The translations under genes were made by a program, and so were the position numbers. The notes beneath the pieces were generated by a model. The model was given only the letters and a program-made list of their open reading frames with translations, was not told the DNA's origin and ran no database searches. Below are positions 10,073 through 17,654 of a stretch of 64,000 nt of DNA, one piece after another; the first letter of the stretch is position 1; every line of letters starts with the position of its first letter. Source of the DNA: Ignavibacteriales bacterium (lineage in GTDB: Bacteria > Bacteroidota > Ignavibacteria > UBA10030 > UBA6906); contig JBBIRR010000023.1 in NCBI GenBank assembly GCA_037441705.1, forward strand, positions 2,165-66,164, written 5' to 3'.

Positions 10073-10777
10073 CTACTGTTTCTTGAGCTGCGCAATCCTT
10101 GCAGCGACAAGCTCCCTCTGTTCTGTTGTGAGGTCGGGACGCTGCGAGAGCGTGATGTACTCATTCAACGCTTCGCCCTTCAGGCCGGATTTCTCCAGCG
10201 CTTCGGCAATCAGCAGGCGGTTTTCGAACTGCGCCAGCGGAGGGTACCGCCGCAGCACATCCATAGCCCTGAGCGCGCTCGTCGAGTAGAAACCGTTGTT
10301 GTACAGCACCCGCGTGCCGTTCAGCTGGAACCTTCCGACCTCGAGGTCACCATCGCCTGCTGCGGCGCTTCGTTCCCTGTCCTCTCCCCTGAACGCCGTC
10401 GTTCCGGGAATATCGAGTTCTTTCTTCTTCCACTCGTACGACGAGGCGCGCACGCGTTCCATCGTCAGCTTCAGCATCAACTCCTCGGGCGTGAGCTGGC
10501 GAATGTCGGAGATATCCACGATCACTTCGGAGGGAAGGGAGATTTTCTTGTTCAAAGCCGGAAGCACGATCACTGCCGTGCTCTGTTTGCCGATTTTGAT
10601 CGTCGCATCAGGGCTGAGCGGTTCGCCTGCGCGCGCCTTGACCCACGTTTCCGCCACGCCCGGACGAATGAGCACCTCGCCCTGTGCTTTTTGCAGCGTG
10701 ATCTGCTCGCCTCCCCACACGATGGACGCGCAGAGCATGGTGAGCAGAAAAGCAATCACGGTTCGTAATCCTCTCAT
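10073..10777 (-). CDS. Secreted FecR-domain-like protein with helical/TPR-like C-terminus
   Basis: ORF 10073..10783. The second ATG at 10777 is better spaced from AAAGGAG. There is a signal peptide, and GEVLIRPGVAETWVKARAGEPLSPDATIKIGKQSTAVIV resembles the FecR sensor domain. The C-terminus is helical. Confidence 0.6.
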   Translation of the reverse strand: MRGLRTVIAFLLTMLCASIVWGGEQITLQKAQGEVLIRPGVAETWVKARAGEPLSPDATIKIGKQSTAVIVLPALNKKISLPSEVIVDISDIRQLTPEELMLKLTMERVRASSYEWKKKELDIPGTTAFRGEDRERSAAAGDGDLEVGRFQLNGTRVLYNNGFYSTSALRAMDVLRRYPPLAQFENRLLIAEALEKSGLKGEALNEYITLSQRPDLTTEQRELVAARIAQLKKQ

Positions 10778-10816
10778 ATCCATCTCCTTTCACTCCTGTT
10801 TCACATTCTTCTTTTG

Positions 10817-15000: not shown

Positions 15001-15032
15001 GCGTACGATCCAAGCACAGAACCGGTGGCTTC

Positions 15033-17654
15033 CTACCTCACCTTTTCTTCCAGGCTCCACACGCTGCGGTAGTATCCTTCGGCCACCTGCTCGAGAAAAC
15101 GATGGTACTTCTGCGGGAGGTTTTTCATTTTCGGTTTGAGGGCGGGCTTCACGTTGTCCCACGGCTGTGACCGATCCACCGCCTCGGCGATGTTGGCGAG
15201 ATACTCGAGAAGTTTCTTCCGTACGCGCTCGTTGACCGAGTCGTCCGCGGCGAGCGAGATGTAGCGGGCGGTCGTCTCGAGGTCGTAGGTGTGGTCAACG
15301 AAGGCTTTCAGGCATTGCCCGCGGAAGTACTCGGCGACGGTGCCGCGGTTGAGTCCGCCAAGCTCCTCCGCGGTTTCGGAAATGGCGTTGCGCGAAAATT
15401 TCTTCTCGCGCAGCAATTCGAGGATTTGGTCCTCAATGGCAATGGTGCCTTTGACGGTGGAGGTGATCTCGTCGGGAAGGTCCTTCGTTGTAATCATCGT
15501 CCGGTTCTCGGCCTTCGCGAGCAGCGCTGCCCGCGTGATGACGCTCTCCAGTTCGCGGATATTGCCGCGCCAGGCATGGTTCTGCAGAATGTCCAGCACG
15601 TTCCTCGACACGCGAAACTCTTCTCCCTGTCTCTTCAAGAAATGATGAATCAGCAGCGGGATGTCGCCGGGGCGTTCGCGCAGCGGAGGAATCTCGATCG
15701 TCAGAACATTCAGCCGATAGTAGAGATCCTCGCGGAAGCGTCGCTCCTTCACCATCTGCTTCAGGTCTTTGTTCGTCGCGGCGATGACGCGCACGTTCAC
15801 CTTCAGCGTCTTCGTCCCACCGACCCGTTCGAACTCTCCTTCCTGCAGCACGCGCAGCAGCTTCAGTTGAAACGCCTCACTCACCTCGCCGATCTCGTCG
15901 AGGAAGATGGTGCCGCGGTCGGCAAGCTCGAAGCGTCCTTGCTTCTCCTTCACGGCGCCGGTGAAAGCACCTTTCTCGTGACCGAACAGCTCGCTTTCGA
16001 GTAAGTTTTCTGCCAACGCACCGCAATTGACGGCAACGAAAGGATGCTCGTTGCGTCTGCTGCGTCGGTGAATGGCGCGGGCAACCATTTCCTTGCCCGT
16101 CCCGCTTTCACCGAGAATAAGGACGGTCGCGTCGCTGTCGGCGATCTTCGCCACAAAGTCAACGACGCGGCGCATCACGCCGCCGCCGTCGTAGACGATT
16201 CCCTCAAATTCCTGCGCCCCGTCGGTCGCCCCTGTATCGGCGACGTTGGCTTCCTCCAGATCATCCCGTTTGGAACTGAGCGCGTGAATCTCCGCTTTGT
16301 AACGGCGAATTTCGTCGAGCAATTCCTGTGTGCGGTCGGTTTGTTTTCTCGCTTCGAGCGACACCAGCTCGCGTTCGAGCGCTGCAACCTTTGCTTCGCG
16401 GTCACGCAGCTTGGCAGTGATCCGTTCTTTTTCCGATTGCACTTTCTCCAACTGCCTGGCAACCACGCGATGGCGGTACGCCAATGCCCCGCCGATCGTT
16501 ATCAGGCCTACCACAACAAAGGGCATGATGGGAAGGACGACCGCGAAGGGGGCGAACAGGATGTGGGAACAGACAACCACAGCGACCAGGAGAACCGCCG
16601 GGATCAGCAGGCGGAGGCGCGAGGTCATCAGAAGCAGCGGCGCGGCACATCCGAACCCGACAACGAGGCACAGCACATACACAAACCATGAGGGAACGGA
16701 AACAAGAAAGCCGGAGTGCAGCGCGTTGTCCAGAAACACCGCATGAAGTCCTATCGCCGGATACCGCGGATCAATCGGCGTGGCGAACGTCCGTTCTTCG
16801 CTGACGACGCCCACGAGGATAATCTTGTTCTTGAAGGACTGGAGGGGAATCGCAGGCGTTCTGCCCGCACGCAATGCGTCGTACGCACGCAGGACTTCGA
16901 GAAACGGGTAGGCATTGAACGAGGTGAGGCGACCCGGGTAGTTCAGCGATACCGCCCCGCCGTCGGTTGCGATGCGCACAAGCTTTCCATCCCGTTTGTA
17001 AGAAAGCGTCCCGTCTTCGTAACGCACGGCCGCGCGCTCTAAGTGTGCATAGACTCGCAGCACTTCCATCCCGAGCGACGGCACAATCTCCTCGCCGTGT
17101 GCGATGAACAGGGGCAAGCGAAGATCATCCAGCACGTTGACATGGCCGACGCCTGCTGCAGCTTCCAGCAGTGACTGCATCGGCGCGTGAAACTCGGCGC
17201 CCTTGGTTTCCACGTCGGCAACCTGCGGATAGCGAAACGGCGCGCGTGCGTCCGCGGCCGGCGCCGCCTCGGCCGCGCCGATCCGTCCAAACGTCCCGCC
17301 GAGCACAACGTTGCTCGCGACGGCCACGACGTGCCGCAGCAGCTGATCGTACTCCGGATATTCGGCGCTGGGATTCTCGAACAGCAGGTCTATGCCGATC
17401 ACTCCGGCCTGCACGTCGGTGAGGGCCTTCACCATCAACGCGTGGAAGTTGCGGCGCAGCGGCCAGCCTAATTCGCGGATGGCGTCGTTGTCGATGTACA
17501 CAAGGACGATGTTCGTGTCGGCGCGCTGATCGCCGCGCAGCGTGTACTGCAGCGCGATGACTCCGTGTTCCAGAGTCGAGAGGGGGGAACGGAGAAGGAG
17601 TGCGAGGAGTGTCGCCGCCAGCGCAAGAGACGCCGGAACGAGAAGTCGTTTCAT
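15033..17654 (-). CDS. Transmembrane CHASE2-domain sigma-54-dependent transcriptional activator (one-component bEBP)
   Basis: ORF 15033..17699. The ATG at 17654 ([14 protein letters not shown]) overlaps the upstream stop by ATGA. The N-terminus matches the CHASE2 pattern ([38 protein letters not shown]). It is followed by about 3 TM helices, a coiled coil and an AAA+ sigma-54 domain ([23 protein letters not shown]). A C-terminal HTH-like segment is present ([17 protein letters not shown]). Confidence 0.8.

What the first reader, a model, noticed from the sequence alone, without database searches (positions are those of the whole stretch)
10073..17654. Candidate undescribed envelope system: CHASE2 / sigma-54 one-component activator driving a four-gene module of unknown function
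- A membrane-anchored sigma-54 activator with a periplasmic CHASE2 sensor (15033-17654) is followed by a near-consensus -24/-12 promoter (14858-14873).
- Four tightly spaced genes follow: two lipoproteins with no recognisable family (13805-14776, 12833-13684), a beta-barrel / transglutaminase-like fusion (10817-12817) and a secreted FecR-like protein (10073-10777).
- All four products carry export signals, so the output appears to be an outer-membrane or periplasmic assembly.
- FecR-like periplasmic proteins next to CHASE2 sensors is a neighbourhood I recall from other phyla. This is not verified here. If true, the FecR-like protein may be a co-sensor feeding back on the activator.
- I know of no characterised system with this composition.
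Basis: partly seen in the sequence, partly recalled or inferred. Interest (0 to 1): 0.7.

Follow-up and report, generated by a model that had tools for sequence, protein, structure and literature searches.

The report
Membrane sensor-activator driving envelope operon
A membrane-anchored sensor that is also a sigma-54 gene activator sits next to a conserved enhancer and promoter driving four exported proteins of unknown function; the unit recurs across many Ignavibacteria-like genomes and has never been studied.

Summary
A (15033-17654, -) is a CHASE2 / 4-TM / AAA+ sigma-54 activator with an intact GAFTGA loop.

Comparative analysis of 80 related genome loci adds a full cis-regulatory unit downstream of A's stop codon:
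- a tandem repeat TTCCCGCA-N13-TTCCCGCA (15000-14972), present in 59 of 63 loci;
- an IHF-like site (14924-14912);
- TGGCAC-N5-TTGA (14873-14858).

Of 89 promoter-motif hits in 1.25 Mb of loci, 60 lie just upstream of B. None lies before A, C, D or E.

Gene order A-B-C-D-E holds in 43 of 53 loci with enough flank. Six of the seven apparent C gaps that I inspected hold a C-type lipoprotein.
- B and C are lipoproteins of two unrelated, lineage-restricted families. B's confident model has no convincing PDB relative.
- D is a PorV/PorQ-like barrel fused to a transglutaminase-fold cysteine enzyme with invariant Cys and His.
- E is secreted. It is not detectably FecR (0 of 30 orthologues hit PF04773). 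It models as a small beta domain plus a TPR-like domain.

The regulatory wiring is well supported. The function is unknown and is inferred to be envelope remodelling or trans-envelope signalling. No description of this system was found.

The parts
19629..21356 (-). TPR-repeat lipoprotein gene, first gene of the upstream block that ends with A
   Evidence: ORF. It gives many TPR-family matches in NCBIfam. It is syntenic with the DUF4292 and M23 genes upstream of A in most loci.
18856..19701 (-). DUF4292 (LolB-like) lipoprotein gene; the true start is probably near 19632 (MTPMRALL...LVSC)
   Evidence: PF14125, 9.1e-16. LolB1_Flavo gives 3.5e-8 but 33 bits, below its cut-off of 50. Its stop overlaps the M23 gene start by 4 bp.
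17651..18859 (-). Coiled-coil plus M23 peptidase (EnvC/DipM-like) gene; its stop overlaps A's ATG by 4 bp
   Evidence: Peptidase_M23, 6.1e-28. EnvC, DipM and ShyA models match below their cut-offs. This gene sits directly upstream of A in 35 of 44 loci with enough flank.
15033..17654 (-). A: membrane-anchored one-component sigma-54 activator. Order of parts: TM1, periplasmic CHASE2, three TM helices, coiled-coil linker, AAA+ domain with GAFTGA, lid, Fis-like HTH motif (residues ~753-779), and an ~80-aa conserved C-terminal extension (KxKNLPxxYH)
   Evidence: Pfam matches. Hydropathy, GAFTGA and Walker A. C-terminal alignment with invariant LGG(L/F)NRGT and KxKNLP..YH. HTH_8 is not detected in 10 orthologues, although it is detected in the window's other bEBP.
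14972..15000 (-). Candidate enhancer (UAS): tandem direct repeat TTCCCGCA-N13-TTCCCGCA (units at 15000-14993 and 14979-14972), 33 nt after A's stop codon and ~100-127 nt upstream of the -24 element
   Evidence: This is the only such pair in the 64-kb window on either strand. A unit pair 15-30 nt apart is present in 59 of 63 loci, and most pairs are spaced 21-22 nt. Of 85 pairs in all loci, 67 lie upstream of B.
14941..14969 (-). GC-rich hairpin followed by a T-rich tail, between the UAS and the promoter; possible terminator of the A transcript
   Evidence: Terminator-like site. The scan as a whole found no more sites than shuffled sequence gives, so this is weak evidence.
14912..14924 (-). IHF-like site AATCAACAGGTTA (matches WATCAANNNNTTR) between the UAS and the promoter
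   Evidence: The exact consensus occurs within the 120 nt before the -24 element in 11 of 63 loci, starting 42 to 58 nt before it (mostly 48-53). Shuffles give 0.3 on average and 3 at most.
14858..14873 (-). Sigma-54-type -24/-12 promoter TGGCACGACGGTTGAA
   Evidence: Sequence. Window statistics. TGG[CT]A[CT]-N5-TTG is present within 300 nt upstream of B in 57 of 65 loci, and upstream of A, C, D or E in none.
13805..14776 (-). B: lipoprotein (Cys22) of a lineage-restricted family, with two N-terminal helices, a mostly beta body and a conserved C-terminal WWGVPYRVF
   Evidence: No Pfam, NCBIfam or PADLOC family. 334 homologues, every named one 'hypothetical'. AlphaFold model with pLDDT 83 and pTM 0.77. 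The best PDB matches are only generic Ig-like sandwiches with TMq <= 0.28.
12833..13669 (-). C: lipoprotein (LLVGC, then QKPxEVxL) of a second, unrelated, fast-evolving family
   Evidence: No family hit. An exhaustive phmmer search of 1.84 billion representatives found only 153 relatives, nearly all ~280-320 aa. C is not homologous to B, D or E. A C-type lipoprotein is present in six loci where tblastn missed it.
10817..12817 (-). D: signal peptide, then a PorV/PorQ-like outer-membrane beta-barrel (~22-345), a middle domain that I take to be a beta-sandwich (~350-470, inferred from the sequence only), and a transglutaminase-fold cysteine enzyme domain (~480-666; Cys552, His585, Asp591/Glu626)
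   Evidence: The family profile against PDB sequences gives PorV 6h3i_F (3.2e-3) and the LapG-like protease 4u65_E (9.5e-3). Full-length homologues of ~660 aa occur in 142 genome loci.
10073..10777 (-). E: secreted protein with a small beta domain (26-88), a long helix (97-120), a low-confidence linker (124-162) and a TPR-like helical domain (165-233)
   Evidence: AlphaFold model with pLDDT 76.8. Foldseek places the beta domain nearest 5ix9 (E 1.6e-3, TMt 0.75) and the C-terminal part nearest TPR domains such as LapB 7t6d_B and YbgF 2xev. There is no FecR hit.

Best explanation
**What it is.** This is a self-contained sigma-54 regulatory unit that responds to a signal outside the cytoplasm.

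**The activator (shown by sequence and domain matches).** A is an inner-membrane one-component enhancer-binding protein. Its CHASE2 domain faces the periplasm. Three further membrane helices and a coiled coil connect it to a cytoplasmic AAA+ sigma-54 activation domain and a Fis-like helix-turn-helix.

**The switch (inferred).**
- A periplasmic cue changes the assembly state of A.
- A binds the tandem TTCCCGCA repeats that lie just after its own gene.
- A bend at the IHF-like site brings A to sigma-54 RNA polymerase at TGGCAC-N5-TTGA.
- ATP hydrolysis by A then opens the promoter, and B-C-D-E are transcribed as one operon.
- Keeping the target next to the activator's own gene suits a membrane-tethered DNA-binding protein.

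**The products.** All four are exported in this genome (shown by signal peptides and lipoboxes).
- Two are novel lipoproteins.
- One is an outer-membrane barrel carrying a transglutaminase-fold cysteine enzyme, probably periplasmic.
- One is a periplasmic beta-plus-TPR protein.

**The function (inferred, least certain).** They probably form an outer-membrane-associated module that cleaves or cross-links an envelope component. A is translationally coupled to LolB-like and EnvC-like envelope genes, which fits an envelope-homeostasis role.
For: **Domains and topology of A:**

**Gene order:**
- A-B-C-D-E is kept in 43 of 53 loci with enough flank, down to about 36-40% identity of D.
- Six of the seven loci where tblastn missed C hold a C-type lipoprotein in that position. 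In the seventh (L050) C is detected but fell outside the position range the script accepted.

**Promoter:** 60 of the 89 TGG[CT]A[CT]-N5-TTG hits in 1.25 Mb (both strands) lie within 320 nt upstream of B. None lies before A, C, D or E.

**Enhancer:**
- A tandem repeat is present in 59 of 63 loci, and most pairs are spaced 21-22 nt.
- The pair is unique in the window.
- Independent second copies of the whole UAS-plus-promoter unit precede an accessory gene in L004 and a duplicated B in L065.

**IHF-like site:** enriched and at a similar position in each locus that has it.

**Operon structure:**
- Short gaps between B, C, D and E, and a convergent gene after E.
- The organism has another canonical sigma-54 activator in the same window, so sigma-54 is in use.

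**Export and products:**
- Export signals.
- Invariant Cys552 and His585 in D.

**Coupling of A to the upstream genes:** 4-bp stop/start overlaps with the M23 gene and onward to the DUF4292 gene. The M23 gene is directly upstream of A in 35 of 44 loci.
Against: - There is no transcript, binding or genetic data. Every regulatory step is inferred from motifs and their conservation.
- The -12 element lacks the canonical C (TTGA), and that base is not conserved.
- A's DNA-binding region is not recognised by Pfam HTH_8 in 10 orthologues. That A binds the repeats rests on adjacency alone.
- In L006 and L007 the repeats, promoter and B-C-D-E persist without an adjacent A.
- One subclade has B without any signal peptide, and L080 lacks B. 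B is therefore not an obligatory exported part.
- D's family assignments are below the curated cut-offs.
- No function can be read from B, C or E.
Confidence: 0.65

Rival explanations
1. The four proteins are mainly the input side, not the output. D (an outer-membrane barrel), E (periplasmic beta plus TPR) and the lipoproteins would relay a surface or periplasmic signal to the CHASE2 domain of A, and the sigma-54 promoter would give positive feedback. This would be a sigma-54 counterpart of FecA-FecR-FecI cell-surface signalling. It does not exclude the main explanation.
For: - In S. meliloti, the CHASE2 cyclases need the outer-membrane beta-barrel NsrA to perceive their signal (PMC13001267).
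- CHASE2 genes cluster with FecR-domain and TPR proteins in Burkholderiales, Campylobacterota and S. meliloti.
- E combines a small beta domain with a TPR-like domain.
- E is present in all 53 loci with enough flank.
Against: - E is not detectably FecR.
- No interaction data or interaction model exists.
- Sensory partners are usually co-expressed with the sensor. Here they sit behind a promoter that needs the activator.
- D carries a conserved catalytic Cys and His, which points to an enzyme rather than a relay.
Confidence: 0.2
2. A Lap-like regulated proteolysis module. D's periplasmic transglutaminase-fold protease (LapG-like) would cleave E, or a lipoprotein, at a flexible linker. That cut would release or activate a surface or periplasmic factor.
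For: - D's C-terminal profile weakly matches LapG-type proteases (4u65_E at 9.5e-3 and 4fgo_A; the CystProtLapG model at E 0.15).
- E's N-terminal domain matches PDB 5ix9 in two independent ways: by sequence profile (E 0.31) and by fold (E 1.6e-3, TMt 0.75).
- 5ix9 is the template used to model the LapA retention module, which is the substrate of LapG (bioRxiv 10.1101/198937).
- In E's model the beta domain is followed by a helix and a low-confidence linker, as in LapA.
Against: - Every one of these matches is weak.
- The di-alanine stretch in the window's E (SAAAG) is not conserved in orthologues.
- No LapD-like or c-di-GMP component, type I secretion system or giant adhesin lies in the cluster.
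- The LapG equivalog model scores 11 bits against a cut-off of 320.
Confidence: 0.1
3. An accessory of the type IX secretion system. D would be a PorV/PorQ paralogue carrying its own sortase-like cysteine transpeptidase, analogous to the PorV-PorU pair. It would process or attach a subset of surface proteins, perhaps B and C.
For: - The N-terminal part of D matches the PorV/PorQ family (3.5e-14) and the PorV structure sequence 6h3i_F.
- The window encodes a type IX cargo protein with a Por_Secre_tail domain.
- Proteins that end in a sequence like that sorting domain are common in the related loci (read by eye only).
- Transglutaminase-fold enzymes catalyse acyl transfer (established knowledge).
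Against: - The PorV/PorQ score is below the family cut-off (53 against 90), and the PorV equivalog scores 21.6 against 250.
- B, C and E show no type IX C-terminal sorting domain in Pfam scans.
- No type IX core genes lie in the cluster.
- A C-terminal extension of an even-stranded barrel would be periplasmic, not on the surface (inference).
Confidence: 0.08
4. There is no functional link between A and B-E. The order would be inherited synteny, and the sigma-54 promoter would be served by a different activator, for example an NtrC-type regulator elsewhere in the genome.
For: - L006 and L007 keep the repeats, the promoter and B-C-D-E without an adjacent A.
- A is in an operon with the upstream envelope genes rather than with B-E.
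- Another sigma-54 activator lies in the window.
Against: - A is adjacent in 50 of 53 loci across deep divergence, including loci where 1-6 kb has been inserted between A and B.
- The repeats sit directly after A's stop codon.
- Non-coding repeats and the promoter are conserved at protein identities of about 40%, where neutral intergenic DNA would not be.
- The putative recognition helix of A is nearly invariant, which matches the invariant repeat sequence.
Confidence: 0.05

Closest known systems
NtrC-family bacterial enhancer-binding proteins acting at sigma-54 promoters (e.g. NtrC, ZraR, PspF)
   Same: - AAA+ Sigma54_activat domain, GAFTGA loop and lid.
- A Fis-like LG(G/I)(L/I)NRGT helix-turn-helix motif.
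- An upstream activating sequence about 100 nt from a -24/-12 promoter, with an IHF-like site between them.
   Different: - The sensory module is a periplasmic CHASE2 domain with four membrane helices instead of a soluble receiver, GAF, PAS or V4R domain. The activator is therefore membrane-tethered.
- The binding sites are direct rather than inverted repeats.
- The HTH is not recognised by Pfam HTH_8 and is followed by an ~80-aa conserved extension.
- No paper in the searched library pairs CHASE2 with sigma-54 or with enhancer-binding proteins.
CHASE2 receptor gene clusters with FecR-domain, TPR or outer-membrane partners: the Burkholderia 'BiofilmReg' operon (RR, LysM/FecR protein, CHASE2 kinase, DUF4136 protein); the Campylobacterota cluster of CHASE2 cyclase, phosphodiesterase, FecR-domain and TPR proteins; and S. 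meliloti CyaD1/CyaD2/CyaK with NsrA
   Same: - A TM / CHASE2 / 3-TM sensor encoded beside a secreted small-beta-domain protein, a TPR-like element, lipoprotein(s) and an outer-membrane barrel.
   Different: - The output here is direct sigma-54 transcription, not a kinase or a cyclase.
- E fails the FecR model.
- The partner genes lie downstream of the regulated promoter.
- The lipoproteins and the barrel-enzyme fusion have no counterpart in those clusters.
FecA-FecR-FecI cell-surface signalling
   Same: - The concept only: an outer-membrane barrel plus a periplasm-spanning sensor controlling an alternative-sigma promoter next to the genes.
   Different: - There is no TonB-dependent receptor, no ECF sigma or anti-sigma factor and no detectable FecR domain.
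- The sigma factor is sigma-54, and it is activated by an ATPase.
LapG / LapA retention-module system (bacterial transglutaminase-like cysteine proteases)
   Same: - A periplasmic transglutaminase-fold cysteine enzyme with Cys and His (D).
- A small beta domain that resembles PDB 5ix9, followed by a helix and a low-confidence linker (E).
   Different: - The protease is fused to an outer-membrane barrel.
- There is no LapD or c-di-GMP component, no type I secretion system, no giant adhesin and no conserved di-alanine site.
- All similarities are below the family thresholds.
Type IX secretion PorV/PorQ outer-membrane proteins (and the PorV-PorU attachment complex)
   Same: - The N-terminal ~320 aa of D resembles the PorV/PorQ barrel family.
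- The lineage has type IX cargo proteins.
   Different: - The score is below the family cut-off.
- D is fused to an enzyme domain, whereas PorU binds PorV non-covalently.
- The cluster contains no C-terminal sorting-domain cargo.
Membrane-bound one-component transcription factors (ToxR, CadC)
   Same: - One polypeptide both senses in the periplasm and binds DNA at the membrane.
   Different: - ToxR and CadC are sigma-70-type winged-helix activators with one membrane helix.
- A is an AAA+ sigma-54 activator, which must oligomerise while tethered by four helices.

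Membership tests
Bacterial enhancer-binding protein (sigma-54 activator) - A | AAA+ sigma-54 interaction domain (PF00158) with Walker A and B motifs | tested here: met
   PF00158 at 1.4e-73 (246 bits against a cut-off of 20.2), residues 493-654. 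GESGTGK at residue 515.
Bacterial enhancer-binding protein (sigma-54 activator) - A | GAFTGA loop that contacts sigma-54 | tested here: met
   An exact GAFTGA lies at residue 562.
Bacterial enhancer-binding protein (sigma-54 activator) - A | C-terminal Fis-type helix-turn-helix (PF02954) | tested here: inconclusive
   There is no HTH_8 hit in A or in 9 orthologues at E<=10. The window's NtrC-type activator does hit HTH_8, at 7.6e-7. Even so, an invariant ...ELGG(L/F)NRGT(V/I)(A/S)EY.RG motif resembling the Fis/NtrC HTH is present.
Bacterial enhancer-binding protein (sigma-54 activator) - A | A cognate -24/-12 promoter with an upstream activating sequence | tested here: met
   The motif and its conservation are shown. 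Binding and activation themselves were not tested.
Bacterial enhancer-binding protein (sigma-54 activator) - A | ATP-dependent open-complex formation with sigma-54 RNA polymerase | not testable with these tools
   This needs in vitro transcription or genetics.
CHASE2 transmembrane receptors - A | CHASE2 domain (PF05226) above the gathering score, flanked by one N-terminal and three C-terminal membrane helices | tested here: met
   128 bits against a cut-off of 26.3, residues 15-332. Hydrophobic segments at 3-23 and 314-393.
FecR family (PF04773) - E | A match to the FecR domain model | tested here: not met
   No hit for the window protein at E<=10, for 30 orthologues at E<=1, or for the family consensus at E<=10.
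FecR family (PF04773) - E | A FecR-like fold | tested here: inconclusive
   No FecR or PupR structure appears among the 50 Foldseek PDB matches listed. The best match is 5ix9, an adhesin anchor domain. Only the beta-rich N-terminal 60 aa show a motif-level resemblance (G.V.VR.GV.E.W...GD.L), which is my reading of the sequence.
TPR-like helical repeat proteins - E, C-terminal domain | Helix-turn-helix repeats superimposable on TPR domains | tested here: inconclusive
   Foldseek gives LapB 7t6d_B (E 0.073, prob 1.00) and the YbgF TPR domain 2xev (E 0.23, TMt 0.49). Pfam TPR models hit only 1 of 30 orthologues.
Transglutaminase-like cysteine enzymes (PF01841 / bacterial transglutaminase-like cysteine proteases) - D, C-terminal domain | A match to Transglut_core above the gathering score | tested here: inconclusive
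   21.6 bits against a cut-off of 23 for the window protein. Several homologues carry a precomputed PF01841 hit.
Transglutaminase-like cysteine enzymes (PF01841 / bacterial transglutaminase-like cysteine proteases) - D, C-terminal domain | A conserved catalytic Cys-His-Asp/Glu triad | tested here: met
   Cys552 (GDCDD), His585, Asp591 and Glu626 are invariant in 16 sequences down to 46% identity. Which acidic residue completes the triad has not been resolved.
LapG (NF045674 equivalog) - D | A score above the equivalog cut-off | tested here: not met
   11.2 bits against a cut-off of 320. D is not a LapG orthologue.
PorV/PorQ family (NF033709) - D, N-terminal domain | A score above the family cut-off | tested here: not met
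   53.1 bits against a cut-off of 90. The PorV equivalog scores 21.6 against 250. D has a related barrel but is not a family member by NCBI's criterion.
Bacterial lipoproteins - B and C | A signal peptide ending in a lipobox [LVI][ASTVI][GAS]C | tested here: met
   B has LLVVGC22 and C has LLLVGC, and the Cys is invariant in the alignments. The exception is a subclade in which B has no signal peptide. No dedicated predictor was available.
LolB1 (NF053559 equivalog) - upstream DUF4292 gene | A score above the equivalog cut-off | tested here: not met
   33.3 bits against a cut-off of 50. Membership of DUF4292 (PF14125) is met at 58.6 bits against 23.
Known anti-phage defence systems (PADLOC) | Any component matching a defence model | tested here: not met
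   Only generic AAA+ matches for A, and none for B to E.

The most novel reading that the evidence does not exclude
The unit is a complete trans-envelope signalling device of a new design. The barrel-enzyme D, the lipoproteins and the beta/TPR protein E capture or process a surface or periplasmic signal and pass it to the CHASE2 domain. A membrane-tethered AAA+ activator then converts it directly into sigma-54 transcription at a promoter held beside its own gene. That would make it a sigma-54 analogue of FecA-FecR-FecI with no kinase, second messenger or anti-sigma factor. It would also give the first defined partner set and simple transcriptional read-out for a CHASE2 domain, whose ligands were described as unknown in the one paper read here that comments on it (2016).
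Probability: 0.2. Interest if true: 0.8.

Novelty: new variant of a known kind. Interest (0 to 1): 0.55.

Why it matters
**Unusual combination of known parts**
- CHASE2 is a widespread extracytoplasmic sensor domain. A 2016 paper states that the factors it recognises are unknown.
- Sigma-54 activators are normally soluble.
- Here one polypeptide joins the two, and its target is unambiguous. Enhancer repeats, a bend site, a promoter and four genes all lie next to it and are conserved across many species.

**A compact test system**
- The unit could be moved into a sigma-54-containing host with a reporter to ask three things:
  - what CHASE2 senses;
  - whether the neighbouring exported proteins are partners or outputs;
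  - how a membrane-tethered AAA+ activator reaches DNA.

**New protein families and a biological hint**
- It adds three protein families (B, C, E) and a barrel-enzyme fusion (D) with no characterised relatives.
- It links them to the envelope-biogenesis genes (LolB-like, EnvC-like) of a poorly studied lineage.

**Limits**
- Function is still unknown.
- Every record retrieved here is a metagenome-assembled genome, so none is known to be from a cultured strain.

Tried and rejected
**Family and profile searches that found nothing useful**
- Pfam at E<=10 and NCBIfam at E<=1 on B, C and E.
- Pfam on each of 30 E orthologues, and on majority-consensus sequences of B, C and E.
- Profiles of B, C and E against PDB sequences gave only signal-peptide or marginal hits.
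- PADLOC gave no defence-system match.

**Fold search**
- The B model against PDB matched only generic Ig-like sandwiches (RhoGDI, NPC2, UNC119) with TMq <= 0.28 and rmsd of about 8 A. I do not treat these as homologues.

**Shared ancestry among the four products**
- Rejected. hhalign of B against C matched only the signal peptide. C against D, B against D and E against C gave nothing.

**C**
- An exhaustive phmmer search found only orthologue-length relatives and no multidomain context.

**HTH_8 in A**
- Not found in A or in 9 orthologues.

**Literature**
- CHASE2 together with sigma-54 or with enhancer-binding protein gave zero papers.
- A search for membrane-bound bEBPs listed no paper whose title or abstract describes one.

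**Other sigma-54-like motifs in the window**
- The hits at 31450 and 49582 lie inside ORFs and I regard them as chance.

**Other ideas dropped**
- A Spy/ZraP-like identity for the accessory 105-aa protein in L004 was not supported by Pfam.
- A conserved LapG-type di-alanine site in E was rejected because it is present only in the window's copy.
- The terminator and sigma-70 promoter scans found no more sites than shuffled sequence gives.

Full report
**1. The observation**

- A is at 15033-17654, B at 13805-14776 and C at 12833-13684. Orthologues suggest C really starts at 13669.
- D is at 10817-12817 and E at 10073-10777.
- Gaps are short: about 120 nt between B and C, 15 nt between C and D, and about 35 nt between D and E.
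- The next gene after E is convergent, so the unit ends at E.

Pfam confirms CHASE2 (6.2e-37), Sigma54_activat (1.4e-73) and the AAA lid in A. B, C and E have no Pfam or NCBIfam family even at permissive thresholds. D gives sub-threshold matches to the PorV/PorQ family in its N-terminal part (3.5e-14, 53 bits against a cut-off of 90) and to Transglut_core in its C-terminal part (21.6 bits against 23).

The motif TGGCACGACGGTTGAA is at 14873-14858. It lies 81 nt upstream of B's ATG, which is preceded by AAGGAGG.

**2. Anatomy of the activator**

- A has one hydrophobic segment at residues 3-23 and a block at 314-393 long enough for three helices. This is the usual CHASE2 topology, and it places residues ~25-313 in the periplasm and everything after ~395 in the cytoplasm.
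- A heptad-rich stretch that looks like a coiled coil (~400-480, my reading of the sequence) precedes the AAA+ domain.
- The AAA+ domain keeps Walker A (residue 515) and an exact GAFTGA (residue 562).
- Pfam HTH_8 is not detected in A or in nine orthologues. It is detected in the window's second, NtrC-type activator at 25458-26816.
- An alignment of the last 149 residues nevertheless shows an invariant ...ELGG(L/F)NRGT(V/I)(A/S)EY.RG segment. It closely resembles the Fis/NtrC helix-turn-helix.
- That segment is followed by an ~80-aa extension with an invariant KxKNLPxxYH motif.
- I therefore read A as a complete enhancer-binding protein with a divergent DNA-binding end.

**3. The cis-regulatory region**

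I fetched 80 genome loci that encode a D relative and located the partner genes by tblastn.

*Promoter.*
- TGG[CT]A[CT]-N5-TTG occurs 89 times in 1.25 Mb (both strands).
- Of these, 60 lie within 320 nt upstream of B on the coding strand.
- 57 of 65 loci with enough flank have the motif before B.
- None has it before A, C, D or E.
- Several of the 'other' hits are also upstream of B, in loci where my start-codon call for B was off.

*Enhancer.*
- Aligning the upstream regions exposed a tandem direct repeat, consensus TTCCCGCA(C/G)TT.
- A unit pair 15-30 nt apart is present in 59 of 63 loci, most pairs are spaced 21-22 nt, and the second unit usually lies ~90-118 nt before the -24 element.
- In the window the units are at 15000-14993 and 14979-14972, which is 33 nt after A's stop codon.
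- The pair is unique in the 64-kb window.

*Bend site.*
- An exact IHF consensus (WATCAANNNNTTR) starts 42 to 58 nt before the -24 element in 11 of 63 loci. Shuffles give 0.3 on average.
- The window's copy is at 14924-14912.

*Other points.*
- A weak terminator-like hairpin (14969-14941) lies between the repeats and this site.
- Enhancer, bend site and -24/-12 is the textbook sigma-54 layout.
- Two loci carry extra copies of the whole repeat-plus-promoter unit, which shows the unit is modular. L004 has one ahead of a small secreted protein. L065 has one ahead of a duplicated B.

**4. Conservation of the gene set**

- Of 53 loci with at least 5.6 kb upstream and 0.8 kb downstream of D, 43 show all five genes in order by tblastn.
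- In six of the seven loci where C was missed, a ~300-aa lipoprotein with the same N-terminal (GC.K.P.PVEL) and C-terminal (...Q.AS.HN...) features sits in that position. The seventh (L050) does have a detected C. It only failed the script's position range, because D's best hit there starts inside the gene.
- E is present in all 53.
- Conservation extends down to 36-40% identity of D.

Exceptions are informative.
- L006 and L007 keep the repeats, the promoter and B-C-D-E but have no adjacent A.
- L009, L032, L037 and L060 have 1-6 kb inserted between A and the enhancer.
- L080 lacks B.
- In one subclade B starts directly after the promoter with no signal peptide.

The record titles label these loci as Ignavibacteriota, Ignavibacteria, Bacteroidota or Chlorobi metagenome-assembled genomes, with a few probably mislabelled 'Chitinophagales'.

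**5. The four products**

*B.*
- B has 334 homologues, and every one that carries a name is 'hypothetical'.
- Its model is confident (pLDDT 83, pTM 0.77). It has two helices and then long beta strands.
- It has no convincing PDB relative. The best matches are generic Ig-like sandwiches with TMq <= 0.28.

*C.*
- C has only 153 relatives among 1.84 billion representative proteins, nearly all of orthologue length.
- B, C, D and E are mutually unrelated.

*D.*
- D is a signal peptide, a barrel, a middle domain and a transglutaminase-fold domain. Cys552, His585, Asp591 and Glu626 are invariant.
- Its profile weakly matches PorV (6h3i_F, 3.2e-3) and a LapG-type protease (4u65_E, 9.5e-3).
- PorV-type barrels end in the periplasm, so the enzyme domain is probably periplasmic. 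This is an inference.

*E.*
- E fails the FecR model in the window protein, in 30 orthologues and in the family consensus.
- Its model (pLDDT 76.8) shows a ~60-aa beta domain, a long helix, a low-confidence linker and a TPR-like helical domain.
- The beta domain's best PDB match is 5ix9 (E 1.6e-3, TMt 0.75). The helical part matches TPR domains of LapB, YbgF and BepA.
- 5ix9 was also the third of three marginal sequence-profile hits, at E 0.31.
- 5ix9 is the N-terminal anchor domain of a LapA-like adhesin. It is the template used to model the LapA retention module, the substrate of LapG (bioRxiv 10.1101/198937).

**6. Surroundings**

- A's ATG overlaps the stop codon of an EnvC/DipM-like M23 gene by 4 bp.
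- That gene in turn overlaps a DUF4292 (LolB-like) lipoprotein gene, which is preceded by a TPR lipoprotein gene.
- The M23 gene is directly upstream of A in 35 of 44 loci.
- A therefore appears to be the last gene of an envelope-biogenesis operon.
- The window also encodes a type IX secretion cargo protein and a second sigma-54 activator.

**7. What is known**

- I found no paper that pairs CHASE2 with sigma-54 or with enhancer-binding proteins.
  - Burkholderiales: response regulator, LysM/FecR protein, CHASE2 kinase and a DUF4136 protein (PMC5192318);
  - Campylobacterota: CHASE2 cyclase, phosphodiesterase, FecR-domain outer-membrane protein and TPR protein (PMC9239204);
  - S. meliloti: a FecR-domain protein and a TPR protein are targets of the cAMP regulator Clr, which acts downstream of the CHASE2 cyclases (PMC5498481).
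- In S. meliloti the CHASE2 cyclases perceive their signal through an outer-membrane beta-barrel, NsrA (PMC13001267).

**8. Interpretation**

- The regulatory wiring is well supported by comparative evidence but is untested experimentally. That wiring is a membrane-tethered CHASE2 activator, tandem repeats, a bend site, a sigma-54 promoter and one operon of four exported proteins.
- What the products do is open.
  - I favour an inducible outer-membrane-associated enzyme module for envelope remodelling.
  - A sensory-relay role with positive feedback is the main alternative and is not exclusive.
  - Lap-like proteolysis and type IX secretion accessory readings rest on weak similarities.
- The parts belong to known superfamilies. 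I therefore rate this a new variant of a known kind rather than categorically new.
- It is nonetheless a real, widely conserved, undescribed system with an unusually clean read-out.

Noticed in passing
L044, L049, L056, L058, L062, L064, L067, L068, L072, L077, L078 (B orthologues): In this subclade B begins shortly after the -24/-12 motif, in most loci with an in-frame stop only a few codons upstream of its start. It has no signal peptide or lipobox, whereas C keeps its lipobox in all the C sequences examined. B's export is therefore not universal. This is unexplained.
   Followed up: partly
L004:14145-14603; L003:10623-10931; L042:14225-14530: A 105-aa secreted, basic, helical protein looks like an accessory member of the regulon. 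In L004 it has its own TTCCCGCA repeat pair, TGGCAC-N5-TTGG and ribosome-binding site. In L003 it follows E by 37 nt. It is absent from the window and has no convincing Pfam family (DUF533 at 3.3e-3, below its cut-off).
   Followed up: partly
L065:7809-9024: B is duplicated between B and C, and the copy has its own repeat pair and promoter motif.
   Followed up: partly
L006 and L007, upstream of B: The enhancer repeats, the promoter and B-C-D-E are retained, but A is not adjacent. In L006 the upstream genes are divergently oriented and encode large proteins that end in a sequence resembling a type IX sorting domain. L007's upstream genes were not inspected.
   Followed up: partly
window 54894-54908 (+): TGGCATCGAAGTTGC lies about 100 nt upstream of a 4Fe-4S cluster protein gene (55006-56118). 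It may be a second sigma-54 promoter in the window.
   Followed up: partly
window 25458-26816 (-): This is a canonical NtrC-type response-regulator sigma-54 activator (REC, AAA+, HTH_8). It shows that the organism uses sigma-54, and it serves as a positive control for HTH_8 detection.
   Followed up: partly
window 2067-4439 (-): This is a subtilase with a type IX secretion C-terminal sorting domain (Por_Secre_tail, 2.6e-8), so the lineage has type IX cargo proteins.
   Followed up: no
window 22901-25343 (-): Adjacent CHAD-domain and Ppx/GppA (exopolyphosphatase-type) genes point to a polyphosphate-related pair.
   Followed up: no
window 13721-14914 (+) and 10013-10768 (+): Long mechanical ORFs of 397 and 251 aa run antisense to B and E. 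They were not analysed separately. I take them to be artefacts of the high G+C content, because the minus-strand genes B and E have conserved orthologues.
   Followed up: no
L060:7227-8012: An extra DUF4382 / CarboxypepD_reg lipoprotein gene is inserted between the sigma-54 promoter and B in this locus.
   Followed up: partly
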